A DNA stretch of 64,000 nucleotides, from positions 1 to 64,000 of the forward strand of contig JAYWIR010000043.1 of the NCBI GenBank assembly GCA_036172245.1. Direction: 5' to 3'. The position numbers and the translations under genes are program-made. A model generated the notes under the pieces. The model saw only the letters and a list, made by a program, of their open reading frames with translations. It was not told where the DNA came from and searched no databases. Below are positions 1 through 41,219 of the stretch, piece after piece. Within the stretch, counting starts at the first letter, position 1. Each line of letters opens with the position of its first letter. Source of the stretch: Raillietiella orientalis. Lineage: Eukaryota.

Positions 1-3000
1 CGAACGGATCTCCGGAGGGCGGCTATGGTACAGGTGTCGGAGAGCGAAAAGTTGCGGTGTCGCCTACCTGCTTCGGCCAGCCGTCGAGGCCGCGGCTCAG
101 GGCGTGCGGTTCGACGATCAAGGTCCTGTCGGCCAGCTGACTCTCAGGTGGTCCGACTCGATCGATCTGATCGTCACGAACGTGTACGCACCGAGCGGCA
201 GGGACCTGATGAACAGGAGGGCGAGAAAAGAGTTTTTCCTTGCCCTCCGGCGAGACTGGCTGACCAAAGCAGGCCTGCGTAATGCCCATCTGGTTGCAGG
301 CGATTTCAACGTTCGCGTAAAACCAGATGAGCAGAATCCCGAGCCTGACCTCGTCAAGGAGGTGTGCATGGCGGTGCACATCTGTAATCTGTTTTTCAGT
401 GCACCGGTAATGGAAGACAGCATTGACCACGTGTTTCTTGACGAGCACCTGTGCCCTCGCGTGGGCAGGCTCGGCAAGTTACCGTGCGAGCTGTCCGACC
501 ATCGCCCGCTAGTCCTCGAGATCCATCCGCGCGACAGGGGCCCCCCTTCGTCAGCGTGGCGTCTCCCAGGGGACTGGCTGAAGCTCCCGGACGCGGGGGA
601 ACATCTCCGCACGTTCATACGGAGCTTCAGCCTGCGAACACTCCAGGATTGGGACCCCTTCAAGCGGTCGGTCCAGGAGTTCTGCGACCAGTTCCCTCTG
701 CACCGCCTACCTACGGGTTTTGGGACCGGGGTACGTAACGAACGAGCCTACCTGCAGGCCCATCCTTACGCCAGGACTTCTGACATCCGCAGGATGTCGG
801 AATACAAAACGGGAGCCGAGAGGCAAGCCTGGCAGTCCGGATCGGCCAGCTTACTGGACGATCAAGGCCAGGAGCACTCCGCACCTGCCCAAATCCGCGG
901 CCTGCTGCGGAGTTACTACTCCTCCCTGTATGCCAGGGCACCTCCGGAGAGGAACGTCTCACGACTTTTGCTTCCGGAAGGCGCTTCAGCGTTCGAGGAG
1001 GAGCAGAGAAAAACCCTCGACGAGCCTTTCACGATGGACGATATCCTCTCGCCGATCGGGAAGCTCAAGACGCGAAACGTTCCAGGGGAGGACGGCCTGC
1101 CCGCGGAGTTTTATCAAACTTTCGTGGCTGAGCTTACCCCCCTGGTACAGGAACTCACCTTGTTGATACGCGAAACATGTGACGTTCCCGCCTCGTTTCG
1201 TTCGGCAAAGGTGCGGCTGCTCCCTAAGGGAGGAGTTCTGAGAAGCATGAACAACTGGCGTCCCATCACATTAGTGAATGCGGACGCCCAGCTGATTGCC
1301 AAGATGTGGGCAGAGCGTCTGGGACGAATTGCCAACATATTTATCAGCCCGGTGCAGACATGTGCTGTTCCCGGGCGAAGCATGGAGGCGAACCTGTTCC
1401 AGGCTTCCACCTGGCTAGAGCTCCAACATGAAAGGAGCTGGGTGCGCAGCCGGAATTCCGGTGCGTGCACTGGCAAGTGGTTGGATGGTCGGGTGGGGGA
1501 GGGAGCGCTTACGGTAGGAATCGACTTGCGAAAAGCATTCGATTGCGTCGACCAGAATCTCCTTCTGGAGCTTCTGGAACGCTAGGGCTTCCCGGGCTCA
1601 TTAGTGGCCTATCTGCGCTCCTGCTGGCTCGACGCGCTCATCAACGTTAGTTTCAGCGGGCAGACCGTGCACGGCGTGCCGGTGCGGCGTGGGATCCGGC
1701 AGGGAGACAGCCTGAGCCCCTCGCTCTTCAGTACCTACTTTGAGTTGGTACTGAGAGCGTACAGGGGAACTCTGGCGCACCTGCCGCACGACTGTGCCGG
1801 TACGCCGGCCGTTTCAGCATACGCGGACGACCTTCTGCTGCTGCTCCCTATGTGCACCCTGGTTGCGGCGGTCGAGGAGTTCTTCGACCTGCTGCATCGG
1901 GGAACCGGACTTACGGTTAACAGGGCGAAGTCGTCCGTGATGCCAGTTGGTGCGGCGTGGGCAGGGCAGCAGGACTGGGTCCGTTTGGGGATCCCCACGG
2001 TGAGGTACTTCACCCGTTGGTGCGTCCCTGCAGGTCTCCTTCTCCAGCAAGCCACCGGCAAGACGGGACTGACTTCGTTCCATGCACTGTGTCGCAGCTT
2101 CAACCGATACGGACTCCAGATACGGAGGGTGGCTGCGCTGTATCGTAATAACCCAGGATTGCTCACCTGTCGCTTTTTGAACGGTAGTGCCTGGTTGCAG
2201 GAAATTGTTCGGACGTGGGGACAGTTCATCATGCAACGCTCCCAACAGGAACGAAGTTTCCTGTTTAGGGGTTACAGAAGTTGCACGCTCCGTGAGATCC
2301 TGGAGGATCCAAAGAAGAGAGCGTGGGCAGGAACAACACCCCTCGCTGCTGCGCTGCTCTCCCTGATGGAAGATCTTGACAGCGATGTTGCGGCGAAGTG
2401 GGTGGTTTCAGTTACAATCTCCGGAAAGGAGAAGAAGATAGGAGAGTGGAAGACGGGCCAGTTAACAGACGCTGCGTCCCCGAGTACGCCTCCCAATGTA
2501 CTTCTGCGCTGGGGCGCGCTGCTCGATGTTCCCATTGAACATCTGAAGTGGCCCCCGGTGCTCATGAACACTTCCGCCCTCCCCTTAAATATTCAGGAGC
2601 CGGCTCTGCAGTTGCAGCACTGGGGACTCCCTTGCAACGCCCGCCGATACCACTGGAACTGGGATGCGGTGGACCGCAATTGCGTCAGGTGTGGGGAACG
2701 GGAGTCCCATCCCCAGCTGCTAGTGGATTGTGTTGCCCTTTGGCCCATTTAATTTCGCTTTGCCGCGTCCATCGGAATCCCCTGCAACAACCGCAGGGAC
2801 GCACTGAAATCTCTCTTCGTTGCCGACGCCCTTCGGCCAGCGGCCTTGTTAGCAGCTTTGTGCTGCCTACGCGGGATCGTCACCGCTTGGAGCAAGGCTA
2901 CAAGAGGACAACGCGACCAGGGTGCCCTCCAGCCAGCCTCCTTGTTCCTGAGAAGGGCGTCCCGATGGCCTACCTGGATCCAGGAATACAGAAGGAGCTT

Positions 3001-3263
3001 GCCGGCATCCTGCAAAGGATGCAACGGCCCCACCAGCAACTGTGAACCCTTCCCTTACCCTCGCAACTTTTCTTTTCTTTTTTGTTTTGTATTTTATTTT
3101 TCTTCCTTCCTTCTGCTTCCGTGGTGAACCGTACCGGTCTGCGAACCGGTGACTCGGCAGGCTCTGTGTTTCTCCGTGCGTGGCTTGAGCAATGGTCCAG
3201 CCAATGAACGTCTTTAGAAATGTTTGTTTTTATAATAATGCCCCGGCGAGATCCGGGTGGAAA
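1..3263 (+). mobile_element. L1/Tx1-type non-LTR retrotransposon, family B; 5' part lies outside the window, ORF2 disrupted
   Basis: APE motifs (VTNVYAP, AGDFN, IDH, SDH), RT motifs (WRPITL, DLRKAFD, QGDSLSP, YADD) and CVRC-x7-Q-x4-C. Stops at 1583-1585 and 2750-2752, internal deletion near 2012. 3' hairpin CCCGG-N6-CCGGG at 3242-3257. Confidence 0.92.
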
Positions 3264-6200
3264 TCGAACGCCTTGTTGAGATCGACCGCGACCGCCAAGG
3301 CACCTGGCGTTCCCTCCTGCCGTCGGCGCCTGTTCTTATTGCCTGCGGCAGTGGCTTTCGCAGCAGCCTGGCTTTGCTGCGCCACAACTTCCTGCAGCTG
3401 CATCCATGCACTCGCGAAAAGGATGTTAGCCTCCGTGGATCTTCCCGGAACCGCGTAGGTTTGTTCCGGGCTCACCACGGATTCGGCGATACTTCCTAAC
3501 TGCACGACCCATAGCCTGAAAAACAACTTGACGTACGAGTTCACCAAGGTGATCGGACGCCAGTTGTCAAGTTCACGCAAGTCTCCGCCTTTCGGCAGGA
3601 GACGCACCTTCGCTGAGCGGAAGGAATCCGGGACATTCCCGGATTCACTCATCAGCGTCCCGAGTCTGAGCATCAAGGAAATGAGCTCCACTGCAAAGCA
3701 CTGATAAAACCCTGCAGGGAGCCCATCCTCGCCTGGCGCCTTTCGTCTCTCCAGCCCAGCAATGGCGGACGAAAATTCATCCGCCGTGAAGGGCTCGTTG
3801 AGACGTTCGCGTTCCTCCTCGCCGACAACACGAGCATCCTGACACAGGAGTATCTCAAAGAGAATATCTTCCGTCGGGGATTCCGCGTACAGAGAGGAGT
3901 AGTAGCGTCTCACAATGCGGCGTACTTCGGCTGGGGCCGAACATTCCTGGCCCTTGTCGTCCAACAGGCATGCTGCTCCGGACTGCGAGACCTGGCGCTC
4001 GGCCCTCGCCTTGTACTCTGCGAGACGCCCGACATCGGCGCGTCTCGAAAACGTGCGGGCCTGCAGAAAGTCTCTACTGTTGGCCACGCCCTCTTCGAAA
4101 CCGCGTGGAAGCCGGTGCAAGGGGAATTGGCAGCAGAACTCGCGAACAGATCTTTTGAGATCGTCCCAGTCCGCAGGTTCTTGAATGGCAAAGCCTCAAA
4201 GGTGTTTACGTAGATGCTCCGTAGCCTCCGGTTGGCTACGGTAATCCGCCTGCATCCTCCAGTTTTGCAACGGAGGCCCCCTGCCTGGCGGAAGGATCTC
4301 AAACTCCAACTTGTGGTGGTCAGAAAGTCTAGTCAAAAATCTTCCTCTCCTATCCACACGCGAATGCAGGTTTTCATCGAGGAAAACGTGATCGAGCGAT
4401 CTTCCCATCCCAGGTTCGCTGACCATCAAGTTGGCGGCGTGCACGGACGCGCACATCTCGATGGGCAGCGCGCGCTCCCTCGGGCGGCTCCAAGGGTCGG
4501 AGAGCAGGCGGACGTTGAAGTCCCCAGCGACGATGTGCGCCACTGGGAAGGCGGAGTTGTTGAGCTAGTGGCTCTGCACCTCACCAAAGAAAGCTACTCC
4601 TTCTTCAAGGTAGCGAGAGCCACTCGGCGCGTAGACGTTTGTAACAACGAGAACGATGGATTCGGATCACTTAATGACAAGTTGGCCTATCCGTCCGTTG
4701 TCATCGAAACGAACACTATGCATCGCTTCCGCCATTTTTTCTCTGATGAGGAACGCGACGCCGCACGTGTGTGCGCCGCCGCACCGCCAATATAGCGTTC
4801 TGCCTGCGCGCTGCTCCATTTCGGCTGTCTGCTTGTCGGAGATTACGTGAATCTCCTGCAGGAGCGCGAGGTCGAAGGGGCGCAGGGCGTTGGCTACTAA
4901 TCGCCTCTTCTCGTCGTTCTGTAGTTCGTTCACGTTCCAACACGTTACGGACAGACGACGAGAATACGCGATTCCCCGCATTACTGCTGGGAAGGTGGCT
5001 GCTTTTTGGTCGCTCTATGCGGCGAGCAGACGGCGAGCAGCACGACTGGCTGGAGTTGACGGTCGCCACCGCCCTCCGTCGTGCTGCATGCATGTAATGC
5101 CTCCACGCCAGGCTTAACCCCGTCCGGTTTCGTGGAGACTTCGCGTTGCTCCGCGGCGAGCGTTGCCTGGCTGCCTACTTCTGATCGGCGCCCACACTCT
5201 TTTGAACGAGTTGTCCTCGTCTCGGTGATCGGAACGGCATCCATTTCAGAGTCCGACCGGCGCATGTTCGATCGGGTTTCGGCCTTCCGCGAAGTAGTGA
5301 CAGGTTCTGCCGGATTGACAGCTGTCCTGCTGTCGTATTCCGTCACCAGAGCATCGCTTTTGGTGACGGCTGCTTTCCCGGCGCGCGCGTTCTCAGCGTG
5401 CTCAAGCGCAGTTGCACGAGGGACCTTTGCTGAAGTCTTCTTTACTTCATTACGGTTCCTCACTTCGCGTGGCGCCGTAAATGGAGATTGTGCTCTATTG
5501 CCATCTTTGAAGCCATTTTTGTTTTTGAACGATTGTACTTCCGATGGCTCCGACACGCTCGTCATGGGCGCTGCCTTCGGAAGGGCTTTCAATCCCTTCG
5601 TTTGCATGGTATCCGCGCCAGTCGAGAGCTTGTTCTCCCACTGAGACAGCTTGAGATGTTCCTCCGCTTTCGCGGTGTTGGACCGCGACGCGGATTTTAT
5701 TTTGCCGACTTTCGAAGTCGTCACGGCACAACTCTTCTCAGCGGATTCAAGCTTCTCAGCCGTTGCAGGATGAGAAGGAATGGATCTGACGGTACTGAAA
5801 GTGTCCTTTCCGCCGTTGTCCATTGGCGTCCCCGCCGGTTGCTCGAACTCCGAGAGAGCCGGGCGTGCTTGGGAACGACCGCCATTGCGCCTAAGAGGAC
5901 TTTTTCTTGCTCCAAATTCCCCGCACCCTTTCTTTTGCGGCTCCCCTGTTGCGACAGGGGTCGCGCAGGGCTTCGCGTGCGAGGCTTCTTGCTGCTTTGG
6001 GGCGACATTCCGCCTCGCATTTTCACGGAATTTCTGTCATGGTATCTCCGAGTTTTTCGCGGGTTTTTTCTTTTTTTCCGCGCTTTGTTCTTTGAGATGG
6101 AGCTCCGCAACTGCCTTTTTTCGCAAAAGATATGGGCAATTTTTCAATTGGTGGACGAAAAGATTGCAATAACGGCATTTTGCGGAGGGGCATTTATCCA

Positions 6201-6983
6201 AACAAGGCCCCTCCTTCCCGCATTGCTCGCACGTTCTTACTTTGCCAACGAACCTGAGGTGAACGACCGTGTCTTTCACCTGTAGTTTGGTAATCAGCAG
6301 ACGGCGGTCCGGAATTGTAAGCCGTACTCCAGCGACTCCGCTGTGTATGGACGGGATGTCCTTGAAGTTGCTACGCACCCTCCACAGCGCATGGACCGTT
6401 GCGAATGTTGCCAACGCGTTCCAAATATCAATGTCGGAGATTTTCGACTGGATGTCGAAAATCTCCGCCACAAATGAGTCGTCCATGGCGGCTGCGAAGG
6501 CCTTCTGGCCACGTATCGACAACGGGTTGAGCAGCAAGCGTTCCGCAAGTGCAGCGTCATTGCAACTCACTTTGTGATAGCCCATATCTTTTACGGGCAT
6601 AATGGCGAGTAGGTCCTCCTCCCGCACGCCAAAACGGGTCAGTTCATCGTTGACCTTCTTCCCGTCTAGCGCAGAAAGAAAACCACTCACCTTATATCAA
6701 AGAGCAGGTCTATAGCCTTGGGCTACGTATGCTTGCAACTCAGACTCGTCGGGTGGTCCTCCTTTGACGGCTGCTGTGGCAGCGACGTCAGCGAAACTCC
6801 TTTCCATTGGCGAGGCAGACGAAGAAAAGGCTGCAGTCGGTTCCGTGATTGCAGATCCGGACGGAATACCTCCAACTTCAGTAGCCTCGCGTTTTGTCGA
6901 CATTTTCGTCAAAATGCACGACAACAAGATGAAGGGGATGAAAGCACGGAGACGAGAGCGAAGAAAAACACGCCAGTACTCGA
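3264..6983 (-). mobile_element. Family A element: 5' end, disrupted ORF1 (6903-4981) and ORF2 up to the KAFD motif
   Basis: Closely matches the copies at 49932-64000. TAATG overlap at 4983-4979. Cut off at AVDLNKAFD by the element at 1-3263. Confidence 0.92.
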
Positions 6984-7156
6984 TTAAAGTCTCCCGCTAT
7001 CAGGTGCGCCCGCCGAAAGCCTGCTTCGGCCAACAAGTCTCGCCGCAGGGCTTCAAAGAACGCAGTGCGTTCTCCGCGCCTGTGGCTGCTGTAGTGCGCG
7101 TATACGTTCGTGACCACGAGATCGATCGACACGGACCACTTGAGAACAAGTTGCAT
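6984..7156 (-). mobile_element. APE endonuclease fragment of a host element, ending at GDFN
   Basis: Translates as KWSVSIDLVVTNVYAH...AHLIAGDFN, followed directly by the family A 5' end. Confidence 0.85.
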
Positions 7157-8930: not shown

Positions 8931-10170
8931 CGCCGAAACCAGGAGGGAGACGGTTCAGGGGAAACTGGTCGCAGAACTCGCGGACTGAGCTCTTTAAGTC
9001 GTTCAAGTCCGTTAGCGCCTTCAGATGAAATCTTTGCAGGAACTAGCGAAGATGTTGGGCTGCTCCTGCGAGACGCAACCAGTCCCCTGGTAAACGCCAC
9101 GCTGTGGAGGGTGGACCTCTACCACGCAAGTGTATTTCTAGCACGATCCGGGGATGGTCGGAAGGTTCGGATGGCACTGCCCCTCGATTTCCTACCTGCG
9201 AACACAGGTAGTTGTCGAGGAACATGTGGTCGATCCTCGTCTCCGTCCCGGCGTTACCGACCAACAAGTTGCGCGCGTGCATGGCAGCGCACATCTCGTT
9301 GACCAGCTGTGCGCGAATGTCGGGCGCAGCTGCCAGCAGGCGGACGTTAAAGTCCACGGCAATGGGGTGCGCCTTTTGCATGTTTGCTCCGGCCAGCCAA
9401 TTTGGCCGCAGGCTTTCGAAGAACGCAGTGCGTTCCCCGCGCCTGTGGCTCGTGCCGGGCGCATAGACGTTGGTCACGACGATGTCGATCGTGTCGGAGC
9501 ACTTGGCAACAAGCTGCCCGATTTGACCTTCCCCGTCGAAGTGCACCTCGCGCAGCGCATTAACGACGGCTGGCTTGAGCATGAAAGCAACACCGCGGGT
9601 GCGGTCACTCCCGTTTTGGTATATGAGCCGCCCGCCTGCGATCCGTTCGATTTTTTGGGCCTCCACTGCGTGGAGCACGTGCGTCTCCTGCAGAAGCGCC
9701 AGGTAGAAGTCCCGCAGGCTGGCGGCCACTTCTCTCCTCTTGCCGTCGTCGCGCAATCCGTTGACGTTCCAACAGATTACGCGCAGTCGCCAGCAGGAGG
9801 AGAGTCCACGCGTTGGTGTGTTTATGGTGTTTGCTTACCGTCCTTTGCCTCCTGATCAGCATGCGGGGGTTGTGTTTCCATTGCGACGGGCTATTCCTCG
9901 CAAGGAGGTGGTCCGTCGGTGGTTGTGGTGGTCGTTGGAGGATCCTGCTTGGCCAAGGCCGCCTCCGGCGAGGAGTCGCGAGACCTCGCGGACATCGCCT
10001 CTCCGTCGTGGTGGTCCGACCGCATTTCCTCCTCCGCCGGTAGATTTGCGGAGCGCCGCAGGTTGCCTACCTTGCGGCCCTCTTTGCGCTTCGGGAGAAC
10101 GACAGCCGTATCGTTGCCTGATTCGGCTTCCGACTCGGAAGTTTCAGGTCCTTCCGCCTTAGCAGGGTGC
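8931..10170 (-). mobile_element. L1/Tx1 fragment: ORF1 tail, APE domain and start of the linker
   Basis: ORF 9043-9756 has LLQETH, VTNVYAP, DFN, IDH and SDH. The fragment ends at QFPLNRLPPGFG. Confidence 0.85.
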
Positions 10171-14859: not shown

Positions 14860-15544
14860 GCACTGCGTGTGTTGCATTGGGAAATCCTTTGCCAAGCACG
14901 TTTTACTCTGGACGATAGAATAAGCAGATTCCAATTGTACCAGCAGCTAGGCAAGCTGAAACATTCCTTACCTACTATTGAAATATTACGGTTTCCTCCC
15001 AATGTGAAATCGAATTACGTGGAGTTTAGACATGCAACTTGCCGAGGCAGACAAATTTTTCCATCAACTCCAGATATAGGTCGCCCTGCTAAGAGCTGCG
15101 CCTGTAGCAGTTCTGTGTAGCAAACGCAGTATCCTGGATAAACTAACTGCATCGAGATGAGGCCACGACAGCCGGAATGCCATTCACCGGGCAGCCACCT
15201 CCATGGAGAAAGGTTCCATATGTCTCCAGCTTCAAACATTCTGATCTACACATGTTCGCATCTAATACCGGATGTAGAGGACCAGTCACGCTGAGTAGCG
15301 ATCGCTTTTCTCTCTTCCCCGGAGAACATGGACGCCTCTCATGCATTTTTGATTTGTGGTTGCTTGTGGTTCTCTTATCGCCAGCGCCAGTTACGAGGAC
15401 CTCACCGGCCTGCAAGCCTCTGAAGGAAAGTGTCAGAAGACGGGCAAAACCACGTGCTCTTCCGGAAAAATACTTTTAAACTTCATGGTATCATTTTTTT
15501 TTTATAATTGTAATTACAGATATCCTAGTAAATCCAGGTGAAAA
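14860..15544 (+). mobile_element. Decayed 3' fragment of a family C element
   Basis: Resembles the reverse complement of 42500-42930 (RNAIH segment). Ends in CCAGGTGAAAA. Confidence 0.65.
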
Positions 15545-17552: not shown

Positions 17553-17690
17553 ATCTAACCTGACGTAGCGTAACCTAACGTAACCTAACCTACCCCTTCC
17601 CCTCACTTCCCAATGTAAACTAATTTAACAAACCCCTACCTCTACTGTCCAACCTAACTTAACCTTACCTAACGTACACTATCGTAACCA
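17553..17690. repeat. Degenerate (CCTAA/TTAGG)n-like tract
   Basis: taacctaacgtaacctaacctacc ... aacctaacttaaccttacctaac. Confidence 0.65.
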
Positions 17691-26401: not shown

Positions 26402-27920
26402 TTTAGATTTTTCAGGTTCATTTCAATTTTACATTTAGTTGATTACCTTTTTGGAAGACAATATCTGGAATTTTTTGAAGATGAAGCTTTGTAGTGTGAG
26501 TGATACGGAAAACTAAAACTTTATAATTTGAATTGTTTCCTGGGAAACGAAACCTTTTACACCGAATTTTCTGTTGCTATGCCACAGTCTGCAATTCTTC
26601 AGTGTTGTATGTGTCATTCATTTCCTCAATTTCTAATACCGATGTTAGTTTTTGTTTTGTATTTAATATTGTTCAGCGGATTGCTTGAGAAATAAGTTTG
26701 GTTGACAGAGGTTCAGGACACATCGTTTTTTGGCTTGACTTCTTTGAAGTCGAACTCAGAAAAGGATCTCTACAATATAATTTTGCTCTCAAAGGGAGAA
26801 TTTGTTCTCGAGAATTTGCAACATGAATCATTTAAAGTTAAACTAGATTTTTTCTGACTTTCTGCCTTCCCTTGTACCAGCTGCTTTCTATGTTTGTGTG
26901 TGTTGGCTGTATTGCGAATGCAGTCTGCATAAGTTTAGGGTATCTTTCTTCTAATTTAAAGAACTGCTAAAAAGAGGAACCACAGTAAATTTATGCTTTA
27001 CCAAAGGACGCTGTTTTTCCACAATTGCTGGCTTATTTTGCTGTTTTTTCTTTCTTGTTTTAACGGGTTTCTCGGCAACGTAGCCTCCTTTCAGCGTCAT
27101 TGAGCTGTTCGTCTTTCACACGCTCAGTCCTTTATTTCTTCCAAAAGTGATGATCTACACTCCTTCGTATCTTTGCTCTGATTCTGCTCAGTTGATCCCT
27201 GAGAACGGACATCGTTGCTGCGGGAGAATTTCCTAATGCTCAGCCTCTTTTACTGGAATCTCTCAGGATCCCTCGGAACGTGCAGTGGTTGTTTCCTACA
27301 AACAGGAACCGGTGTACCTGTTCCATTGTTTGATCCTTGCTTTAGCCCAAGTGTAAATGGTTTACTGTATGCAGATGCTACTCTTATTCGGGAGACAGTT
27401 AATCTATCAAGAAATCTCCCGTTTAACGATTCACACCCTCGGAAGTGACACTCCACAGTGAGCGATGTAATGACGATGGAGTGCAGCGAAAAATGCAATT
27501 CCCTCGTTTCCCTAGCTTTGCTGAACGTGGTTCTGAGCAGAGACGTACAACTTCCTGTTCGATAACTTCGCCGCGAGGGCAACAAAGCTTATATGGAGCT
27601 TAAGCTGCTGCTGCTTTGGCATGAACAGGCTGAGAATGTCCACCTTACTGGGAGCGCACAAGTCCTTCAAATAAACACTGGACCTCTTTTCATTCCAAAA
27701 ATCACTCCCTTCCAAGTTCTATTCTCTCTTACTCTTTTGCGTTGGAAAACTTATTTAAACCATTTGATACAAGCGAGAAGCCAGGGATGTGTTTTACACC
27801 AATTCCCCTTTCTACAAAGAGAACAGTCATCCAGGAAAGGAGTGATCGACGTGTCAGTCTTCTAGAAGCTGAATCACGCCCGCGCATTTAAATAGATTCC
27901 CAACGGAACACCTCAGTACA

Positions 27921-29285
27921 TAAAGGACTTGTGCGCTTTGCGTCGGGACGGCGATCTCGGCCTACTGACGTTGGAGAGGCTGGAGCTAAAGCTCTAGTTC
28001 CGGATGTTGGCCGTTGTGCCGAAATTGCGTTGCACCTGCTGGTGTGTCCCTGCACGTCTCCTCGTGAACAAAGCCATCAAGAAAACAAGACTCACGTCCT
28101 TTCTTTCATTCCATCGCTCCCGCATCAACCGATGTGGGCCACAGCTGCTGACGGTAGTTGCCTTGCTTCGGAAAAACCACGGATTGATCTGTCGCCCGCA
28201 AACGGTAGTGCGAGGTTGCAGGAAACCGTTTGCACGTGGGCACACTGCGGCATGTAACGCTCCTTACAGGAACGACGGTTCCTCTTTGGGTGCTACAGAA
28301 GTTGCACGCTCCGAGAGATCCTAGAGGATTCGAGGAAGCGAGCGTGGTCAGGAAGAACCCCCCTCGCTGCTGCGCTGGCCTACCTAGTAGAAGATCAGGA
28401 CAGCGATGTTGTGGCGAAGTGGGAGGTGAAAGCAACCATCTCCGGAAAGGAGAAGAAGCAGAGACAGTGGAAGAATGGCCAGTAAACAGACGCTGTCACC
28501 CAGAGTACGCAATCCGATGGACTTCTGCGCTGTTGCGCGCTGCTCGGTATTCCCATTGAACGTCTGAAGTGGCCACCGGTGCTCATGAACACTTTCACCA
28601 ACCCCTTAAAATGGCAGAAGTGGGCTCTTCTGTTGCAGCATTGGGGACTCCCTTGCAACGCCCGCCGAAACCACTGGACCTGGGGAGAGGTCTATCCCGA
28701 CTGTGTTAAGTGTGGAAAACGAGAGTCCCTCACCCACCTCCCAGTAGATTGTGTTGCCATTCGGCCCCTTTAGTTTCGCTTTGCCGCTGCCATTGGTGTC
28801 CAATGGGGCAACCCTAGGGTCGCTTTGAATGCCCTCTTCGTTGCCGAAGCCCTTCAGCCAGCAGCCTTGATAGCGACCTTGTGCTGCCATCGCGGAAACG
28901 TCGCCGCATGGAACACGGCTACGGGAGGACCACGCGATAAGGAGGCCATGCAGGGCGCTGCTCAATTCCTGAAGAGGGCGTCGCAATGGCCCCACCTGGA
29001 TCCTTGAATGCAGGAGGAGCTTGCTGGCATTCTGAGAAGGATGATACGGCCTCTGCAGAAACAGTGATCCCTTCCCGTACACTCCCACTCTTCTTTTTCT
29101 TTTTGTTCAATTTTTTCTCTTTTCCCCTTTCCCCTGTTGCCTTGGTGGACCGTTCCGATCTGCAAACCGGTGACCCGGCATGTTCCGTGTTTCTTCGTGC
29201 GTGGCTGCAGCATTCCTACAGCCAATGACATATTTTTGTAAGGTGTATTTTTTAAATAAGCGACCCGGCGAAATCAGGGTGAAAA
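27921..29285 (+). mobile_element. 5'-truncated, decayed family B element
   Basis: Homologous to 2020-3263. LLQHWGLPCNARR and CVKC. 3' end CCCGGCGAAATCAGGGTGAAAA. Confidence 0.82.
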
Positions 29286-29304
29286 TCGAATGCTATACAC
29301 CCTC

Positions 29305-30947
29305 ACGGTGATGCGCTTTAAGAACCTTGGTGTGTCGTTGGATGACTCTTCCCCAGCGTATCGTGTTCCAGCAGCCTCCAAAAAGAAGAGAGGGCGATCA
29401 GCTTGTTCCTAGGCATCAGATTTTTCCTGCCGGAAAGGGCCGAGGTTTGTAACACGTTTGCGGCTCCTCTCTTTTGTTCCCTGCTTTTTGATTGCCCCCC
29501 GGAGGGAGGATAAAAAAGCGGAGAATGGTCCTCTACCGTATCGCCTTTTTGGGCAACAGGAGGGCGAAAGTCCGTTAAAAGGAATTGTGCGCTCCTCGTC
29601 TCAATGGCGGCATACGAATGCTAACGTTGGAGCGGCTGTAGCTTCAGCTACAGTTGCGTATGTTGGCCGTTGTACCGGAGTTGTGATGCACCTCCTGGTG
29701 TGTCCCTGCGCGTCTCCGCGTCACAGAAGCCACCGAGAAGATGAGACTCACGTCCTTTCTTTCACACCATCGCTCCCGCATCAACCGATGTGGGCTCCAG
29801 CTGCGGAGGGTGGCTACCTTGGTTCGGAAAAACCAGGGATGGATCACATATCGCCTAGCAAACAGTAGGCCTTGATTGCAGGAAATCATTCGCACGTGGG
29901 CACAGTGCGTCATACAACGCGATCAACATTAACGACGGTTCCTGTTTGGGTTTTACAGAAGTTACGCGCTCCGAGAGATCCTGGAGGATCCGAAGAAGCG
30001 AGCGTCGTAAGTAAGAACCCCCATTGCTGCTGCGCTGGCCTCCCTAAGAAAAGATCAGGACAGCGATGTTGCGGCGAAGTGGGAGGTTAATGTAACAATC
30101 TCCGAAGAAAAGAAGAAGCGAGGGAGAGTGGAAGACGGGCCAGTTAATATACGCTGCCATCAAGAGTACGCCTCCCAATGGACTTCTGCTCTAGGGCAGG
30201 CCGCTCGATGTTCCCATTGAACATCTGAAGTGACCCTCGGTGCTGATGAACACCTGGACCCTCCCTTTAAAATGGCGGAAGTCGGCTATACTGTTGCGGC
30301 ACTGGGAACTCCCCTACAACGCGCGTCGACTACTCTGGACCTGGGACGCGGTCGATCCCAACTGTTAGGTGTGGGGAACGGGAGACCCTCCCCCACCTTT
30401 CAATGGATTGTGTTGCCCTTTGGCCCCTTTGGTTACGCTTTGCCGCGGCCATCGGTATTCAATGTTGCAACCCCATGGACGCATTGAAAGCCCTTAACTT
30501 TGCCGACTCCCTGCAGCATTCGGCTGCGTTAGCAGCCCTGTGCCTTTGCGGGATCGTCGCCGCTTGCAGCAAGGCAACGGAAGGACCTTGCGATAAGGGT
30601 GATATCCGAAACATCGCCTAATTATTGAGGAGGGCGTCCAGATGGCCCCACCTGGATCATGGATTGCAGAAAGAGCTTGCCGATATGCAGCCAAGGATGC
30701 AGCGGTCCTAGCAGCAACTGTGCTCCTTTCCTGCGCTCTCTCAATTTTTTTTTTTTCTCGTTTTTTTTTTTTTCTCGTTTCGTTTATCTCCTTTTTCTCT
30801 GCTGCCGTGTTGGTCCGTGCTGGTCTGCGAACCGGTGCCCTGCATTCTCCGTGTTTCTTCATGCGTGGCTAGAAAACTGCTCCTGCTGCAGCACGTCTTT
30901 GTGAAGCTTATCTTTTAATGAACGACCCGGCGAAACCTGGGTGAAAA
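29305..30947 (+). mobile_element. Second 5'-truncated family B element, in tandem
   Basis: Starts near FKNLGV and is homologous to the previous copy. 3' end CCCGGCGAAACCTGGGTGAAAA. Confidence 0.82.
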
Positions 30948-33900
30948 TTGAAGGCTTTTCTCAAATCGACCACCACTGCAATGGCTCCGGATTCCGCTTT
31001 CCTTACTCAGCCATCTTTCCTTTTCTCTTTTCGGGAGAGAATGCAGGATTCAGTTGACAAACCTGCGAATCGCCGTCTTGCAACTGCCAAAATTTACCGG
31101 CGCAAAACCGGTTTGCTTCAACATGGTTCGTCCGGCAACAGCTATGCACTTCTCCGGACTCTCCACTGATTTTGCTATTTGTCTCTATCCCTCATTTCCT
31201 TGTTTTGCAAGCTGCTTTGCAACCCCGTTTCCTGTCATTTGACGACAGTTGCCTCTCTTGTGCAGATCTCCTCCTTTGAAGCGGAGTCGTACTCTAGTGA
31301 CCGAAACGAGTTAGGGACGACCTCAGTCGCTCACGGATCAGTAGCCATACTGCCATTAAGCAGCAGTCATTTGTGCACCAGGGAGATATGCTATGCCACA
31401 TAGAATTGATTAGACTACGCAGGCAGGCCGTTTTCCACCCGTGCTTTCAATCGACGATGGCGGAGGCGATCTCAGCCATCGTCAGATCTTGCTTTACGGT
31501 GTTCTCCACTTGCTTCCTCGATGAGGGCACGCCGTGTGGAAGCAGACTGCCCAAAATCGCCCTCATGTGCTCTTCTCTCGTGGAAGGAGCAGTAGACGTC
31601 CCGCAAAATACCTACCTGACGAGTCGGAACAGTGCGTCACTGCTGTACTGGATTCGTGTGTTTCGAAAATGGAGGCATTTTCCGGAACGGACCGTGTTGA
31701 CTCGACTACCTTTAGAAAATACTAGCTTCGGCCTCCAGAGGAAATGAAAAAAGAATACCGTTTCTCTGGCAGCAAAATAACCATGGAGAAGGCTGGCAAC
31801 ACTTTCTTCATTTTCAGCATTTTTCGAGAGACTCATATTAAGTCTCGCATTCAAGCCATTAGTCAAGAACATAAAATCCACTTTCGCATTCAGTCTTTAA
31901 TTCTATGTGTTTTTACAAACGGATGCCAGTGGAAAGGATTTTGTAAATACGGACCACATAACCTTGCATTCTGCAAGAGCATGGCTGCGCTCTTCTTTTT
32001 CTTGCAGTCAACCTTCTCTACGTCCAACTAGTTCCCTGTACAAACTCCCTGTTCAAATACCTTCCTTCGTGATACCGTGTTTGCTCTTTTCCGGAACCGC
32101 AATCTCATAACTGACTTTGTAAACATGCAGGAACGCAGTTCACCATCCTGCTAAGCTTTGCAACTTTTCTTTGCTTCCCAGGACGGGCTTTAGACATTCC
32201 TCCGCCAATGCTCGTGTCCTTAATTTCGCCGTCCGTCACCCTTAGGCCAGTTTCTTCCTCGGCTGCCTATGCTTCGCTTCACGCAAGCAGCCTACTGGGG
32301 TTCCCCAGCTATATGTAGGTGGCGGTGGCTTTTGTGACGTTGGATGCAAACGTGTCCTACCTGTAACTTTTCAACCACGTCAGCATACCAAGTCATTCGG
32401 CACACCTTCTCCGAGTTCTTCTTCGCATTACCTGCAATATGCAGCACTTCTTCTACCTTGGCTCGATCCCAGGCAGCTAGATTGCCAAAGACGCGAACTG
32501 GCGCTGCGAATTCTCTTTCCACTCTGTCCTGCTGGACCGTTCCTTGCTTCCCTGTATTTTTCCTATCTCAGCGCCCGCACTTCCGTCGCATTCACATTGC
32601 TCACGTCGCAACGGAAAGCATTTGCAATTGGTGAGAATTTCGGTTCACCTATGCATCAACCTCCAATGTCGACACCCTGAGAATGTACCCGGTCACCCCG
32701 AACATATTTACGTGCCGTCAAACGCTTCATTTTCCTCAGTTCCCTTCAAGTGCATACCCATTATGTCCACGCAATTCGAAAACTACAAGCCCTTTGTCTT
32801 ATAAACATGAATCTCCGAGTATGATGCATCCATCCATTACGTTCCTATTACCGAATAATGCCCCCTTTTCCAGTGAGAAGTCACGACGCAAACCATGAAC
32901 CCAAGAATATTTAATTTGCGCACATCTCCTCTACCCAACCTCGCAACCGCTACATGGAGGCCATTTATTCTCCTTCCCTGAGAGCAAGCACCCATCCACA
33001 TATAGGGGTTCCCATCCAGGAGATTCACGCATTCCAGGAAACTTGCTTAGCTCTAGAGCAAATCAGCCTCTTTTTTTACTGTTTACTCGTTTGGGGATCG
33101 TGAACAAGAACGGAAAAAGCGAATCCATCTCTTTCTTTCTCCCCTTGAACCCTTCCTCCTTCCTTTTGAATGCCGCAACCGTATGCGACTGGGAACGTCA
33201 TGCCGACATCCAATGTGGATCCCCTACGATTCCTTCCGGCTAAGGAGAAATCAATCGAAATGCAGCACGACAACCTGTTGGTTGCTGCGTCTTTGCACTT
33301 TGGCAATTGCAAGAAATGAAGTGTGCCAGCCGGATCTGCATAGCGAAAAACGCGGTAAATCGTTCTGCCTCTCCTTTAGTTGTGGTTTGTCATCTGTTAA
33401 GTAAAGGAACCATGGAAACGCCTGCGCGGCTTCCATTTTTCATTTTTAAATCCAAATCCCCAGTAGCAGGATGGACTGCTTAGGCGGCCAAATCTGCCAT
33501 CCTACCTACAGGGTTGTTCTGCTCCTTCTTAGGAGCAGAAACGATAAGGCTTTGGACAATATCAAGATTTTGCAGAAAACACAAATGTCCATCGCACTGG
33601 TGGAAATCCTGGATAGAAAGCGGAAAATCGAGATAAAACGGGGCATCCTTTTTAGAAGCGCCGAGGTCCTCCATCAGTACCGCAACGTCACAAGGGAGTT
33701 CACAAAAAAATCCAAGAACACCGAGTGGCCACCAGTCTCCCGGATTCTTTCCAAGCTAATTTCAGTACATCACCGTAGGCAGAAAGCATTGCAAGCGAGA
33801 GTGCACCGCCCAGGCAAAGCACCGTCCAACGGTGGTCATGGGGGTACAGCTTCTTGATGATCGTGGGCTGGTCAATCCAGGCTGCCTACTCTGCTGATAT

Positions 33901-36250: not shown

Positions 36251-37859
36251 TTTTTCACTCTCTTAAGCGTGCGAATTTATCATCAAAGACTTTCAATAAT
36301 GCAGAATTTTATAATAAAGTCTCGAGGTTCTTTCAGACACAACACATGGTCCCTCCTATGAGGAACATGTGACTTTACTAGCATTCGAAACGCTTAAGTC
36401 TTTTTCGCAAGCAAAGTGGGAGAGGGGGAGTAAGCAAAACAAGACAAATACTTGAGGGGAAAACAATGTTTCACTGGAAGCGGATGGAAGAGAAATGATC
36501 ACAGATCGTCGGCAGAGGCTCTCTGCACCCAATGTTGGAAGCAGACAACTGCCCGTTGGAATGACCTTAGCCAACGCCATCGGCAAACGTTCTAAATGAA
36601 GATGGCTGCCCAGTGTATGACATTCCGGGTCTTCTGACTTATCGTGTATGCAGTCCATTTGTCCAGGATTCTGCGTATGCAACAGATAACTGCTACACAC
36701 CCGGTTGCTGTGGAGAATCACGCTTCAAGATCCATAAAAAATTGAAGATTTGGTCGATCCATCGATGACGGTCGATTCCACACGGGACCATGAACAACAC
36801 ACTTCATGAATAGGGTCGTGAGAAATTCCCATATCCCGCATACTGCACAATTAATATCGACACTTCCCACGTTTTCCAACGTCCAGTGGTGGCAATGCAC
36901 ATTCCAGGGAACATCACAGTGCAACAACAGCAGCGCCGTTTCCTGCCACTTTAGGGGGAGGGTGGATCAGTCTCTGAATGCCAGGAGCCACTTTAAATCT
37001 TCCAGCTAGATGCCCAGCAGCTCTCTCCATCTTCTAATTTTTCGCGGAAGGACGCTTCGGGTGGCGCCGTCAGTTTGTTCATGGTCCAGTCGCTTCACAG
37101 CTTCTTGCCTGCTATGCGGCAGGAGATTTGTCAACTCGGCTTTTGGCTGATGACGCGCACCCTCTTCGAGAAAGTCAACGCTGTAGTGAGTGGGGTCGTC
37201 TCCGCCCACATGCTTCTGCAGACAAACTCCAGCATGTTCAGCATCGTCCATCCGTTCCTGTGAGTGAAATTTGGCTTGTAGGAACGCACCGATCGCAAAG
37301 TTCACCTCTTCCAGGAGGTCGGACCAGTCCTGTGCCGCACGTATGTCTCCCTACATAAAGCATTCATACTTGGAACACATGCCTCTGGGTAACCTTCAGC
37401 GCTCCCAGTACGACCGTCAATCCCACGCCGAAAAGAAAGCAACGATTTAAGAATTCGGCCTCTCCAGCAGCAGGCTCGTACAGCAGCGTAGCTGCTCCAA
37501 CAAGTCCTCGAGCGCAGATGCCGGCCTAGTCCAGGGTAACAACAGCAGAACATCGTCTGCATAGGCCGACACGGAAGGTGTGCTTGGAAATGATCTCAGC
37601 AGGATCGCGAATGTCTTCCTGCCCTCTCCCAGCTTTAGCTAAAAGTAGATGTTGAGAAGCAATAGGCTTAGACTGTCACCCTGCTTTATACTATCCGACT
37701 AGGCAGGCTGTACGCTGTCCGATATTTAAAATTCATACCTTAGGACGCCAGTCGCATGCGGCACCGCATTTAGTGAAAGAATAAAACCCGTAATTGCATG
37801 CGCTCTAGGAAATTCAGAACGATATTTTGGTCGACGCACTCGAACGCTTTACGCCGGTT
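36251..37859 (-). pseudogene. Decayed family C-like ORF2 from KAFE to the 3' end
   Basis: RKAFECVDQN at 37853-37824, QGDSLS near 37680, VSAYADDVLL near 37560, RNVIHWA near 36620, and a degenerate GTGAAAAA end at 36251. Confidence 0.7.
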
Positions 37860-40800
37860 AGAGAGGACGTGTTTCCTCGGTGCTCCTCGTGCCGGGAACC
37901 ATCCCTAGGTGTAGGCGTCGTGTGTGGTGGTGGTCGATCAGGCAGCAATGCCTGACACGACCACCAGTGCGTGTCAGGGAGGCGGTGTGTACGTCGCCTC
38001 CTGAAGAAATGGAGTGCCAGGTGGCGGCGGCAACGTCGCCTCTATAAAAGTTGGAGTGCCAGGAAGAGGCGGCAACGTCGCCTTCAGTAGCGAAGGAGGT
38101 GGAGGCGTCCGCCCCCACACAACCGGTCACCGTTGCAGCGCGGGCGTAAAGAGCTGTCGTGAAGGCGTAATCGCCTGCAGCCGAGGCGGAATTATCTGCC
38201 TCATGTAGAAGGGATGTATAAACCATCGCTATTCTACAAGGTAGAAAATTTGTATTCTTCTGAAAGTGCGCGCGTTTTTTCTAAGGGGATGCGCGCTCTC
38301 GATGTTAAAGAGGAGGAGCTTTGCGCTATGACCATTCGTAGCGTGAAGGAGTACGTAGAGGTGATCCGCAAACACGCAGATCTGACACAACGTCTGTTCA
38401 AAACCCCCGTGGTGATGGGGACACGCAGGCTCCTTCCCATTACGAAGGACCACAGTATAATGGTCCACCTTTTAGGAGATACCGCGCTGATGCGGAAAGA
38501 ACAATTACGCGCCGAGTAGGGAAAAGAAAGCACGGTCCATGCAGTATGGACCAAGCCTAGTCCTTTCGAGGACTATACCACAGTTCAGTACAACCTCACG
38601 GCTGCCAGTGTAACCGTTCTGGAGGGCTCTACCCTTTCCCGCAAACTGGTGGTCGGCGGAGAAAGCGTCGACCTCTGGTACATGGGGAAACCCAAATACT
38701 TTGGCTTCTGCAACACGTCGGGACACCTCAAAAGGAGGTGCCTCAACGTATGGTGCCAGGTATGCGGGACAATGAACCACACGAGAAAAGTGATCCCACA
38801 ATCCGCTGTGCGAGTGGTTTCCGCGATGAACCTAAAAAAACGCGCGCCTGCTACACCAAAGGCTGGCGGCGAAGGCTGCCGCTCCAGCTGTGCCACCCAC
38901 GCCCGTGATCCAGGCCGCAGCCGACACCCCGACAACGAATGCCTAAAACATCGACAAGAGCGATCAGGTGCCGGAATGGCAAGAAGCCACAGCGAAAAAC
39001 AAAAAGTCGAAGAAAGAACGACGAATTGAAAAAAAGCTCGCCTACCAAAATAAAAAACAGCAGGTTAGCGAGAATTTAAAAGAATGCAGCGTCGTCGTGG
39101 AACGCGTTCCCGCCGAACGCCGCAAAGTAGAAATCGCTGCTACCGACGAGCAACCCACTGCTGAAAATGTCAACAGCGTGAGGAGCGAACCGGCGGAAGC
39201 GTCCGTCATCGAGATCGTGATCGATGACGCCGCCTTCAAGCGTGCCGCGGAGAAGCTGGCTGCATCCTTGCAGCCATGCCCCTCCAGGGCAAGTCCCCTG
39301 CTCTTCAGCACCTACTCTAAGTTGGTGCTGAGAGCGTACAGGGTGACTTTAGCCCCCTTGTCGAGCTCGTACCCCGGCACGCCCGCCGTAGCAGCCTATG
39401 CCGACGACCTTCTGCTCCTGTTACCTATGTCCACCCCAGCAAAGGCGGTCGGAGACTTCTTCGATCTGCTCCGCTGTGGGACCGGACTGCAGGTCAACAG
39501 GGCGAAGTCGTCGGTGGTGCCACTAGGTGCGGCGTGAGTAGGGCAGCAGGACTGCATCCGTCTGGGGATCCCCACGGCGAGGTTCCTCAAGTACCTTGGT
39601 GTGCCGTTGGTGGACTACTTCCCTACGGAAGCGTGGTTCAGCTGCCTTTAAAAAGTTGAGACGGCGATCGGTCCGTTCCTGGAAGGCAAGTTTCACTTGC
39701 CGGAACGGGCCGCGGTTTGGAACGCTTTTGCGGCCTCCATTCTCCGCCCCTTGCTTTTTGTTTGCCATGCCCCCAGAGAATGCAAAAAGAATACAAAGGA
39801 CATCCTCCGCATAGCCCTTTGGGGCGAAGGGAGGCCCCGAGTCCCTCCGAAGGACTTGTGCGCTCCTCGTCGGGACGGCGTTCTTGGCCTCCTGACGCTG
39901 GAGCGCGTTGAAATCCAGATGCGGTGGCGCACCTACGCCATCGCTGCGAAGATGTGGAGTACCGCTTGGTGCGTTCGGGCTCGCCTCCCGGCCAGGCGTG
40001 TGTCCCGCTGCGAAGGACTCGCATCGTTTCCTCTGTGCCCTGACCGGAAGATTCGAAGAAGCGGTCTACTGCTCGGCCGCATGGCAACCCTGGCAAAAGA
40101 GAACTGGATGGTTTGTGGCCCCGCCAACTCCTCCGCTTTGCTAGAGGAGACTGCTGGCACCTGGGCCAAGCACTACCAGAGGTGCGAAGAACGGATGGAC
40201 TGCCTGCGAGTCGGCTTTTGCGCCCGCCAAAGTCTGCGTGAAATTCTTGAATTTCCAACGAGTTGCACGTGGGCGGAAGGCACACCCCTTGTTACGGCGA
40301 TGCCCTTCCTACAAAGGGCGTTTCACGAAAGCCGGAAGCCAAGGTGGCAAGTCTGCTGCCGTATCGCAGGCAGAGAGAAGATGATGAGCGGCTGGACCAT
40401 GGGAGAGTTGACAGATGCCACGACCCCTAGTCTCCAGCCGCGTGGATTAAGAAGATGGGGCGAGCCGCTCGCCATTCGATTGGATGAATTGAAGTGGTCC
40501 CCGGTTTTACTTGGATCCAGGCATCTTCCCCTGAAGTGGCAAGAATCCGCGCTTCTGTGGCTGCATTGGGGTCTACCTGCAACGCGCGCCGCTTTCACTG
40601 GACGCGGGGAAGAGTAAATCCTGCGTGTGCCAGGTGTCGTGAGCGGGAGTCGCTCTTTCACCTCTTAGTTGAATGCCCTGCCGTCCGGATTCTTTGGTAT
40701 CGTCTTAAAACGGCACTTGGGATACCGAATGGTGGCAACGTTGAATGTGTTTACAGTCTTGTCTTCGTGCGGGACGCCCTCAGTACAGCCGCTGCCCTGG

Positions 40801-41215: not shown

Positions 41216-41219
41216 GCAT

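What the first reader, a model, noticed from the sequence alone, without database searches (positions are those of the whole stretch)
3241..3300. Family B inserts antisense at the RT DxxKAFD motif (four junctions)
Seen: three 3' ends are in register: GGGTGGAAA|TCGAACGCCTTG (3263), GGGTGAAAA|TCGAATGCT (29285) and GGGTGAAAA|TTGAAGGCTTTTCTCAAATCGAC (30947). All are antisense to the AFD/AFN codons, in a young A host and in an old unrelated host. The 5' end at 37860 also abuts antisense RKAFECVDQN. Inference: the overlap of the 5' and 3' flanks implies a target duplication of roughly 15-20 bp. Assigning the 37860 element to B rests on its target site only.
Basis: partly seen in the sequence, partly recalled or inferred. 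Interest (0 to 1): 0.82.

Follow-up and report, generated by a model that had tools for sequence, protein, structure and literature searches.

The report
LINE that homes into LINE RT genes
A family of jumping genes (LINE retrotransposons) in this unknown eukaryote inserts, backwards, at one exact spot inside the reverse-transcriptase gene of other LINEs, a new kind of target for a site-specific LINE.

Summary
The window is a nest of related APE-type LINEs of an unidentified eukaryote. All 3 of 3 family-B 3' ends (3263, 29285, 30947) are followed by T[CT]GAA[CGT]GC[CT], the antisense of the (K)AFD/N codons of RT motif A. Two ends sit in independent hosts that both stop at residue 286 of the family-A RT. 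One host is a young A copy, the other an old diverged LINE. The third end is followed by 11-15 nt of target and then a 5'-truncated B, that is, a tandem insertion. A complete LINE head at 37861-37865 abuts a third host that starts at KAFE, overlapping the 3' flanks by 15-25 nt.

Best reading: B is a target-specific LINE. It nicks the sense strand of other LINEs' RT gene after TTCGA and inserts by target-primed reverse transcription, with a duplication of about 15 bp. The 37861 head cannot be assigned to B, because the RT behind it belongs to family C.

Other families here use other coding motifs. A uses the APE GDFN motif, sense. X/C uses FPLHRLPxGF, antisense.

All evidence comes from this one window, because external searches added nothing. 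Verdict: a new variant of a known kind.

The parts
1..3263 (+). B1: family-B LINE, cut by the window start at APE residue 56. APE 2-905, RT 698-3007, about 375-nt internal deletion at about 2012, frame break at 1585-1604, 3' UTR to 3263.
   Evidence: Pfam Exo_endo_phos and RVT_1; tblastn; 2011-3271 is 76% identical to 28033-29293 and 75% to 29696-30988; deletion seen in the alignment.
3242..3263 (+). B1 3' terminal module: hairpin CCCGG-CGAGAT-CCGGG followed by TGGAAA, with an AATAA-like signal about 20 nt upstream.
   Evidence: The same module ends B2 (29264-29285) and B3 (30926-30947). Variants of it end A, D, F and the C-like copy.
3264..7004 (-). Host 1: young family-A copy (about 91% identical to the tandem A copies), cut after the GA of the Asp codon of KAFD (codons at 3274-3264). 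Its 3' half should lie upstream of window position 1.
   Evidence: blastn 3264-7145 vs 53650-49770, 90.8%; RT residues 1-286 at 4120-3263.
27915..29285 (+). B2: 5'-truncated B copy (from about RT residue 529). Its 5' flank is AT-rich and is not RT.
29286..29300 (.). Target remnant between B2 and B3 (TCGAATGCTATACAC). The first 9 nt are antisense AFD. It reads as the upstream copy of B3's target duplication, 11-15 nt long.
   Evidence: It matches B3's 3' flank at 10 of 15 positions.
29297..30947 (+). B3: 5'-truncated B copy (from about RT residue 440).
30948..31295 (-). Host 3: old, diverged LINE RT (residues 171-286), ending VDLRKAF(N) at the junction.
36577..37860 (-). Host 4: old LINE RT (residues 283-883, nearest to family D), starting (NRR)KAFECVDQN at the junction.
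37861..39290 (+). Element W: complete LINE head (conserved terminus GGACGTGTTT at 37865), 5' UTR and ORF1. Family not assignable. It is joined at 39291 to a family-C RT (E, 39291-41215).
53640..53651 (+). Example of an unoccupied target (AAGGCGTTCGAC = KAFD) in tandem copy A1. Other unoccupied sites are at 1532 (B1's own RT), 10809 and 59553 (+) and 44373 (-).

Best explanation
Family B is a target-site-specific, APE-type non-LTR retrotransposon. Its target is the DNA that encodes RT motif A (VDLxKAFD) in other LINEs of its own superfamily, probably including B itself.

Shown: B always lies antisense to the host RT, with its 3' end joined to ...TCGAA, which is the antisense of TTC GA(Y).

Inferred mechanism: the B endonuclease nicks the host's sense strand after 5'-AARGCNTTCGA-3'. 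That 3' OH primes reverse transcription of B RNA, which is made by cleavage about 20 nt after an AAUAAA-like signal and ends in a conserved hairpin plus UGRAAA. The other strand is cut about 15 nt away, giving a duplication of about 15 bp (TCGAANGCNTTNNNN). Reverse transcription often stops early, which gives 5'-truncated copies.

Because the duplication rebuilds the site, a second B can land beside the first. That accounts for the B2-B3 tandem with its 11-15 nt spacer. Each insertion splits and kills the host RT gene.
For: (1) 3 of 3 B ends carry the same flank in register.

(2) Of 9 RT fragments whose alignment reaches residues 283-286, 3 break exactly there and 6 run through (alignment). 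The three broken hosts are different elements: a young A, an old LINE 43-47% identical to A, B1 and D, and a D-like LINE.

(3) Homology to A starts at the first base after the B tail and is identical to the intact A2 site for 41 nt. There is no older flank carried along.

(4) Host 1 lacks its 3' part. TPRT truncation cannot produce that, but an interruption can.

(5) The B2|B3 spacer of 11-15 nt resembles B3's 3' flank at 10 of 15 positions. A complete LINE head at 37861-37865 has the same TCGAACGC 15-25 nt upstream, in the same orientation.

(6) B is a LINE: it has APE and RVT_1 domains, and its 5'-truncated copies share one 3' end.

(7) Other families in the window show the same behaviour at other motifs. 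A heads stand at GDFN in two different hosts. Three X heads and a C-like tail stand at FPLHRLPxGF.

(8) Established knowledge, from passages read: Tx1-, R1- and early-branching LINEs are target-specific, and the endonuclease mainly sets the target (PMC4640811, PMC4494074).
Against: There are only three B ends, all within one 64-kb window. No B copy shows both flanks, so the duplication is pieced together from different copies. B2's 5' flank (27800-27915) is not RT sequence, so that insertion is not intact.

The one 5' junction cannot be tied to B, and the RT behind it is family C. No intact B is present: B1 has a frame break and a deletion.

Five canonical KAFD sites in the window are unoccupied, so occupancy is partial.

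The nick position, the second-strand cut and the role of the endonuclease are inferred. None of the external searches produced a further junction.
Confidence: 0.8

Rival explanations
1. The site is chosen by base pairing, not by the endonuclease. B transcripts read through into the downstream TCGAANGC... flank, and this RNA tail anneals to KAFD-coding DNA at nicks. Copies then land at the motif because it is the only sequence shared by all hosts.
For: The flank is conserved coding sequence, so a read-through tail of 10-20 nt would find partners in every LINE of the superfamily. A passage in PMC4494074 notes that co-transcription with the target can strengthen specific integration of other site-specific LINEs.
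Against: An AAUAAA-like signal about 20 nt before the end of every tail points to a defined RNA 3' end. Host flanks differ at 2-3 of the first 9 nt. No conserved stretch in the B UTRs is complementary to the target. The exact register in two hosts fits a defined nick better. This rival changes the determinant, not the fact of site-specific insertion.
Confidence: 0.12
2. There was one ancestral accident. A single B-in-RT insertion was later copied to other places by segmental duplication, ectopic recombination or gene conversion between RT genes.
For: The window is full of duplicated and rearranged LINE pieces. The region around KAFD is the best-conserved stretch, so it could support recombination.
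Against: B1, B2 and B3 are only 75-76% identical to each other, whereas host 1 is 91% identical to the active-looking A copies. Host 3 is only 44-46% identical to A in protein. Host 1 matches the A2 site from the first base after the B tail for 41 nt, leaving no recombination tract. Hosts and inserts therefore have unlinked histories.
Confidence: 0.04
3. It is chance, or TCGAA is B's own last five bases joined to RT sequence by accident.
Against: The same nucleotide and orientation in two hosts has a probability of about 8e-5, and with the head about 2e-7. TCGAACGC also stands upstream of a LINE head at 37840-37854, where no B tail exists. The intact A site reads ...CAG|TCGAAC, so TCGAA is host sequence.
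Confidence: 0.02

Closest known systems
Tx1L of Xenopus laevis and the Tx1 group (Keno, Kibi, Koshi)
   Same: These are APE-type LINEs with sequence-specific insertion. Tx1 itself targets another transposon (Tx1D), and the endonuclease is held to set the target (passage in PMC4494074). The nearest named relatives of the RT here are L1/Tx1-like proteins carrying zf-RVT.
   Different: Tx1's target is a non-autonomous DNA transposon, and the others target snRNA genes or microsatellites. Here the target is the codons of a catalytic motif of LINE reverse transcriptase, hit antisense, in elements of the same superfamily. Clade membership was not tested by phylogeny.
R1 and R2 elements of 28S rDNA
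   Same: They insert at one nucleotide position of a conserved multicopy target. 5'-truncated copies are common and share a fixed 3' junction. R1 is APE-type and, as I recall, makes a 14-bp duplication, which is close to the estimate of about 15 bp here.
   Different: Their target is a host rRNA gene, so the host pays the cost. Here another mobile element pays it. R2 uses a restriction-like endonuclease.
Zepp (Coccomyxa/Chlorella) and ZeppL (Chlamydomonas) LINE clusters
   Same: [quoted passage not shown] They form clusters of nested copies with raised GC (PMC3446292 passages). This window looks like such a cluster.
   Different: The passages I could read name no motif-level target. The original Zepp papers were not held, so I cannot say whether a fixed site was described. 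The elements here have only 3-5 terminal A's and an AATAAA signal. Relatedness to Zepp was not tested.
Homing endonuclease genes, inteins and mobile introns
   Same: The logic is the same: a selfish element homes into the most conserved, least mutable codons of a gene, so the target cannot easily escape.
   Different: The mechanism is entirely different (TPRT by a LINE). The insertion is not spliced out, so the host gene is destroyed.

Membership tests
APE-type non-LTR retrotransposon (LINE) | Apurinic-like endonuclease domain upstream of the RT in one ORF2 | tested here: met
   B1: Exo_endo_phos E 2.7e-5 (24.5 bits, exactly at the cut-off) and RVT_1 E 5.6e-10. The APE is 51% and the RT 55% identical to family A.
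APE-type non-LTR retrotransposon (LINE) | No LTRs, and copies truncated at variable 5' points with a common 3' end | tested here: met
   B2 starts at about RT residue 529 and B3 at about 440. All three end in the same 22-nt module.
APE-type non-LTR retrotransposon (LINE) | Target-site duplication flanking a single copy | tested here: inconclusive
   No B copy has both flanks in the window. The size (11-25 nt, about 15) is inferred from the B2|B3 spacer and from the head at 37861.
Target-specific LINE (functional class: R1, Tx1, TRAS and the like) | Independent copies flanked by the same sequence at the same position and orientation | tested here: met
   3 of 3 B ends, and two hosts of different families both broken at RT residue 286.
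Target-specific LINE (functional class: R1, Tx1, TRAS and the like) | Endonuclease that cleaves the target sequence specifically | not testable with these tools
   Needs a nicking assay with the expressed B APE domain.
Tx1 group / L1 clade | RT phylogeny placing the element inside the clade | not tested
   No reference set was at hand. Indirect only: the best named hits are L1/Tx1-like proteins at 22-30% identity, and the nearest Atlas clusters are 'LINE-1 ORF2'.
Tx1 group / L1 clade | C-terminal Cys/His (zf-RVT-like) motif in ORF2, and ORF1 with CCHC knuckles | tested here: inconclusive
   Pfam gave no zf-RVT hit for the A RT at E <= 0.01. A conserved (R/K)CGxxES..HL..DC string is visible in all copies, the A ORF1 has two CCHC knuckles (translation), and homologues carry PF13966.
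Zepp / ZeppL | Nested and tandem insertion into copies of its own kind | tested here: met
   B in A, the B2-B3 tandem, and the A1-A2-A3 tandem with 14-nt spacers.
Zepp / ZeppL | Sequence relatedness to Zepp ORF2 | not tested
   No Zepp sequence was available from a tool. No green-algal name appeared among the 66 hits.

The most novel reading that the evidence does not exclude
The window shows a guild of sister LINE lineages that have divided the coding sequence of their own superfamily into separate homing sites. B takes the RT catalytic motif KAFD (antisense). A takes the endonuclease motif GDFN (sense). X/C takes the linker motif FPLHRLPxGF (antisense). D possibly takes an ORF1 motif. All share one 3' hairpin module and one 5' terminus, so only the DNA-targeting part has diverged. 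Such self-referential homing would by itself build LINE-only islands of the Zepp or centromere-like kind. It would also make each lineage a hyperparasite of the others, aimed at codons the victims cannot change.
Probability: 0.45. Interest if true: 0.85.

Novelty: new variant of a known kind. Interest (0 to 1): 0.68.

Why it matters
Site-specific LINEs are known for rRNA genes, snRNA genes, telomeres, microsatellites and one DNA transposon (passages in PMC4640811 and PMC4494074). A LINE that homes into the codons of the catalytic motif of other LINEs' reverse transcriptase would be a new target class and a clear case of a transposon parasitising transposons. The host genome is spared, the victim is inactivated, and the target is protected from escape by its own function.

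If the pattern in the neighbouring families holds, closely related endonucleases with different specificities sit side by side here. That is a natural series for mapping what sets APE target choice, which is of interest for engineered site-specific insertion. It also offers a concrete mechanism for how nested LINE islands grow.

In five searches and the passages I read, I found no report of this target. That is not proof that none exists.

Tried and rejected
1. Whole genome: none is held, so the genome-wide flank logo and the sequence upstream of position 1 could not be obtained.

2. Metagenome scan with the B-tail consensus, without flank: 10 loci. All are chance matches inside GC-rich bacterial-looking coding sequence. 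None has a LINE 3' UTR or a TCGAA flank. No use.

3. Sequencing runs: one coded run, X1, holding 0.12 of the sampled words. Its contigs laid on 2300-3900 are mostly under 90% alike (146 of 165), so it is a relative and not the same genome. One 3755-nt A-like contig aligns from 3900 down to exactly 3264 and ends 7 nt later. Almost no contig covers 3164-3271. This neither supports nor contradicts the junction.

4. Protein-guided scans of genome contigs and viral contigs with the A RT: no relatives.

5. Search for proteins carrying the junction peptide (RT ...KAFD read on into the antisense B tail), residues 240-296 of the 3233-4120 ORF: 116 candidates, none at E <= 10.

6. P0001, the only close relative (57% identity, from a metagenome), runs through KAFD intact. 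It is not informative.

7. Earlier findings of this scan: none for this genome or sequence. A word search gave one unrelated Naegleria LINE note.

8. RNA-guide idea: 8-mer matches between the B or A UTRs (or the W head) and the two targets are sporadic and not shared among copies. Rejected.

9. Rfam and tRNA scans of the window: nothing, so no RNA gene serves as a target between the tandem A copies.

10. B2's 5' flank as a second copy of the duplication: not recognisable.

11. ORF1 fragment at 14120-14440 as a second D-type junction: the ORF1 simply runs on in diverged form. Rejected.

12. Pfam on 15 ORFs of the AT-rich stretches 15-26 kb and 31-36 kb: no meaningful family.
Full report
WHAT THE WINDOW IS

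No genome is held for the window. The window has no N, no tRNA gene and no Rfam match. A self-comparison, together with Pfam and tblastn, shows that most of it is a nest of related non-LTR retrotransposons. Each has an ORF1 with CCHC knuckles and an ORF2 with an APE endonuclease, an RT and a Cys/His C-terminal motif.

The family-A RT has one close relative in the protein collection, at 57% identity, from a metagenome. Otherwise it has 22-31% relatives, many carrying zf-RVT. The named ones are L1/Tx1-like proteins of vertebrates and plants. The Atlas points to 'LINE-1 ORF2' clusters. The organism is an unidentified eukaryote.

Family A forms a head-to-tail array (49925-55840-61741-64000, about 96% identity). 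A further copy lies on the minus strand at 3264-7145, about 91% identical.

THE OBSERVATION

Three copies of family B share about 1.3 kb of 3' sequence at 75-76% identity: 2011-3271, 28033-29293 and 29696-30988. All end in the same 22-nt module, CCCGGCGArAyCnGGGTGrAAA, at 3263, 29285 and 30947. A fuzzy search gave 4 hits, of which 3 are these ends and 1 is a spurious match inside B1's RT.

The bases that follow are TCGAACGCC, TCGAATGCT and TTGAAGGCT. These are the antisense of (A)FD or (A)FN.

tblastn with the A RT and a stitched alignment give the register:
- The minus-strand host right of 3263 covers residues 1-286 and ends ...VDLNKAF(D).
- The minus-strand host right of 30947 covers residues 171-236 and 268-286 and ends ...VDLRKAF(N).
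- A third minus-strand host, left of 37861, starts (NRR)KAFECVDQN at residue 283 and runs to residue 883.

Of the 9 RT fragments that reach residues 283-286, 3 break there and 6 run through. Five of those six carry the canonical AARGCNTTYGAY string (1532, 10809, 53640, 59553, 44373).

The three hosts are different elements. One is a young A. One is an old LINE only 43-47% identical to A, B1 and D. One is a D-like LINE.

On a simple model, a second break at the same nucleotide and orientation of a 5.9-kb unit has probability about 8e-5. With the head within 25 nt it is about 2e-7.

THE MIDDLE JUNCTION IS A TANDEM

After 29285 come 11-15 nt (TCGAATGCTATACAC). Then homology to the RT of the other families resumes in sense orientation at about residue 440. 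This is the 5'-truncated start of B3, which runs to 30947.

So B2 and B3 lie head to tail, separated by a target remnant. The remnant matches B3's own 3' flank at 10 of 15 positions (P about 8e-4). This is what repeated insertion into a site rebuilt by a target duplication looks like.

B2's own 5' flank is AT-rich sequence of no recognisable kind, so that side has been lost.

B1 is not intact either. It is cut by the window edge, has a frame break at 1585-1604, and lacks about 375 nt that B3 has.

TCGAA BELONGS TO THE HOST

The intact A site, read antisense, is ...TTTACGCAG|TCGAACGCCTTG.... Host 1 is identical to the antisense of the A2 site for the first 41 nt after the B tail.

The same TCGAACGCTTTACGC also stands upstream of a LINE head at 37861-37865, where there is no B tail.

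Host 1 lacks its 3' half. Truncation during reverse transcription cannot do that, but an interruption can.

THE HEAD AT 37861

Six elements in the window begin with GGACGTGTTT or a one-mismatch variant: 37865, 41479, 45201, 49940, 55855 and 61756. One search gave 8 hits, and the other two, 27785 and 46044 (minus strand), are not clear heads.

At 37865 this terminus is preceded by ...GCAC TCGAACGCTTTACGC CGGTTAGAGA. The first 15 nt after GCAC are host without doubt (the codons R-K-A-F-E, antisense). The next 10 may be diverged host (N-R in place of D-L) or filler. The overlap with the 3' flanks is therefore 15-25 nt.

Which family the head belongs to is open. Its ORF1 is unlike that of A or of the X elements. 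B's ORF1 lies outside the window. The RT joined to it in frame at 39291 is family C: over residues 571-900 it is 52% identical to C and 35-41% to B1-B3, whereas B1-B3 are 57-59% identical to each other. By elimination B remains the simplest owner, but this is not shown.

MECHANISM

Shown: orientation, register, independent hosts, 5' truncation, a tandem with a short spacer, and LINE domains.

Inferred: the B endonuclease nicks the host's sense strand after ...AARGCNTTCGA. That end primes reverse transcription of B RNA. The second strand is cut about 15 nt away.

All tails in the window carry an AATAAA-like signal about 20 nt before the end, a 5-bp hairpin (CCCGG/CCGGG with family-specific loops) and TGAnAAA. 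This covers B1-B3, A1, A2, D, F and a C-like copy, with degenerate versions in C, E and a minus-strand copy at 47232. The RNA 3' end and its recognition by the RT are therefore probably common to the superfamily, and target choice must lie elsewhere.

According to passages in PMC4494074, the endonuclease mainly sets target choice in such LINEs, and co-transcribed target sequence can reinforce it. I found no conserved complementarity between the UTRs and the targets.

CONTEXT: OTHER FAMILIES DO THE SAME AT OTHER MOTIFS

Family A. Its heads stand directly after ...GCG GGA GAY TTY AAT CGA GTR C, which is AGDFNRV of an APE gene, in sense orientation. This occurs in two hosts whose upstream sequence is clearly different (49921 and 6994). 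The tandem A copies are separated by TTTCAATCGAGTGC, 14 nt.

Family X/C. Three heads of a third ORF1 family (X1 at 41479, X2 at 45201, X3 at 47634) and the tail of a C-like copy (41460) abut, antisense, the motif FPLHRLPxGF at the APE-RT boundary. The hosts are different, and the positions lie within about 6 codons of each other. The tail of C (8932) sits about 19 nt further on, at GFG.

Family D. Its tail (42226) abuts antisense ORF1 ...VDLWYVE. This is a single case.

Family F. The tail of F (13030) and a minus-strand tail at 47232 abut antisense APE at residues 54 and 63, which is not in register.

The evidence outside A and B is thinner, but it makes B's behaviour part of a pattern.

COMPARISON WITH WHAT IS KNOWN

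Target-specific LINEs are well known. [quoted passage not shown] Most such families belong to the early-branching, Tx1 and R1 groups (passage in PMC4640811). Tx1 inserts into the DNA transposon Tx1D (passage in PMC4494074).

[quoted passage not shown] The passages I read in those papers, and in PMC11005252, 10.1101/2025.03.28.645958 and 10.1101/2022.06.16.496473, name no motif-level target. The original Zepp papers were not held. From 10.64898/2025.12.07.692804 I read passages only, and they concern LTR elements.

Five full-text searches turned up no LINE aimed at an RT-coding motif. Searches were for Zepp.

I file B as an APE-type, target-specific LINE of L1/Tx1-like appearance. Clade membership was not tested.

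LIMITS

Everything rests on one window. External routes gave nothing: the metagenome pattern scan, one related sequencing run, contig scans, a junction-peptide search and earlier findings. No B copy shows both flanks, and no intact B is present.

VERDICT

It is a new variant of a known kind, with a bolder guild reading that the data allow but do not prove.

Noticed in passing
window 49921-49939, 6994-6976 (minus), 55841-55854, 61742-61755: Family A heads stand right after AGDFNRV of an APE gene, in sense orientation, in two clearly different hosts. The tandem A copies are separated by the 14-nt remnant TTTCAATCGAGTGC. Family A looks specific for the GDFN-coding site.
   Followed up: partly
window 41461-41478, 45183-45200, 47615-47633, 8933-8960: Three heads of a third ORF1 family (X1, X2, X3) and a C-like tail abut, antisense, the motif FPLHRLPxGF at the APE-RT boundary of different hosts, within about 6 codons of each other. 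The tail of C sits about 19 nt away, at GFG.
   Followed up: partly
window 42204-42247: The tail of family D (minus strand, ends at 42226) abuts antisense ORF1 ...VDLWYVE of element X1. This is a single case, so site specificity is open.
   Followed up: partly
window tails at 3263, 29285, 30947, 55840, 61741, 42226 (minus), 13030, 41460; heads at 37865, 41479, 45201, 49940, 55855, 61756: All families share a 3' module (AATAAA-like signal, CCCGG-loop-CCGGG hairpin, TGAnAAA) and a 5' terminus GGACGTGTTT. The C-terminal third of ORF2 is the most family-specific part (33-42% identity between families against 57-59% within B).
   Followed up: partly
window 47232-47633 (minus): A short minus-strand element joins RT residues of about 5-20 directly to the last 25 or so residues and the 3' UTR, which is a large internal deletion. 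Its tail abuts X2's APE at residue 63, and X3's head abuts its RT start.
   Followed up: partly
window 39291: ORF1 of element W runs in frame into RT residue 344 of a family-C element (E). This is either an internal deletion of about 2.7 kb or a chimera made by template switching. E's tail at 41215 lacks its last bases and is followed at once by a 5'-truncated C-like 3' end (41216-41460).
   Followed up: partly
window 14874-18528 and 20127-26765: An AT-rich stretch (40-47% GC) is present twice at 67-76% identity, the second copy with extra sequence that includes a distant LINE (APE and RT at 22478-24037). No Pfam family was found in the 8 of its ORFs I tested.
   Followed up: partly
window 52794-53004 and 59303-59349: The tandem A copies have ORF2 broken at different places (A1 between APE and RT, A2 further on), so neither is fully intact although they are about 96% alike.
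   Followed up: no
window 3056-3109: The T-rich low-complexity part of B1's 3' UTR attracts very high summed contig depth in run X1 (4054 against 2-50 elsewhere). This is a low-complexity effect, not a copy number.
   Followed up: no
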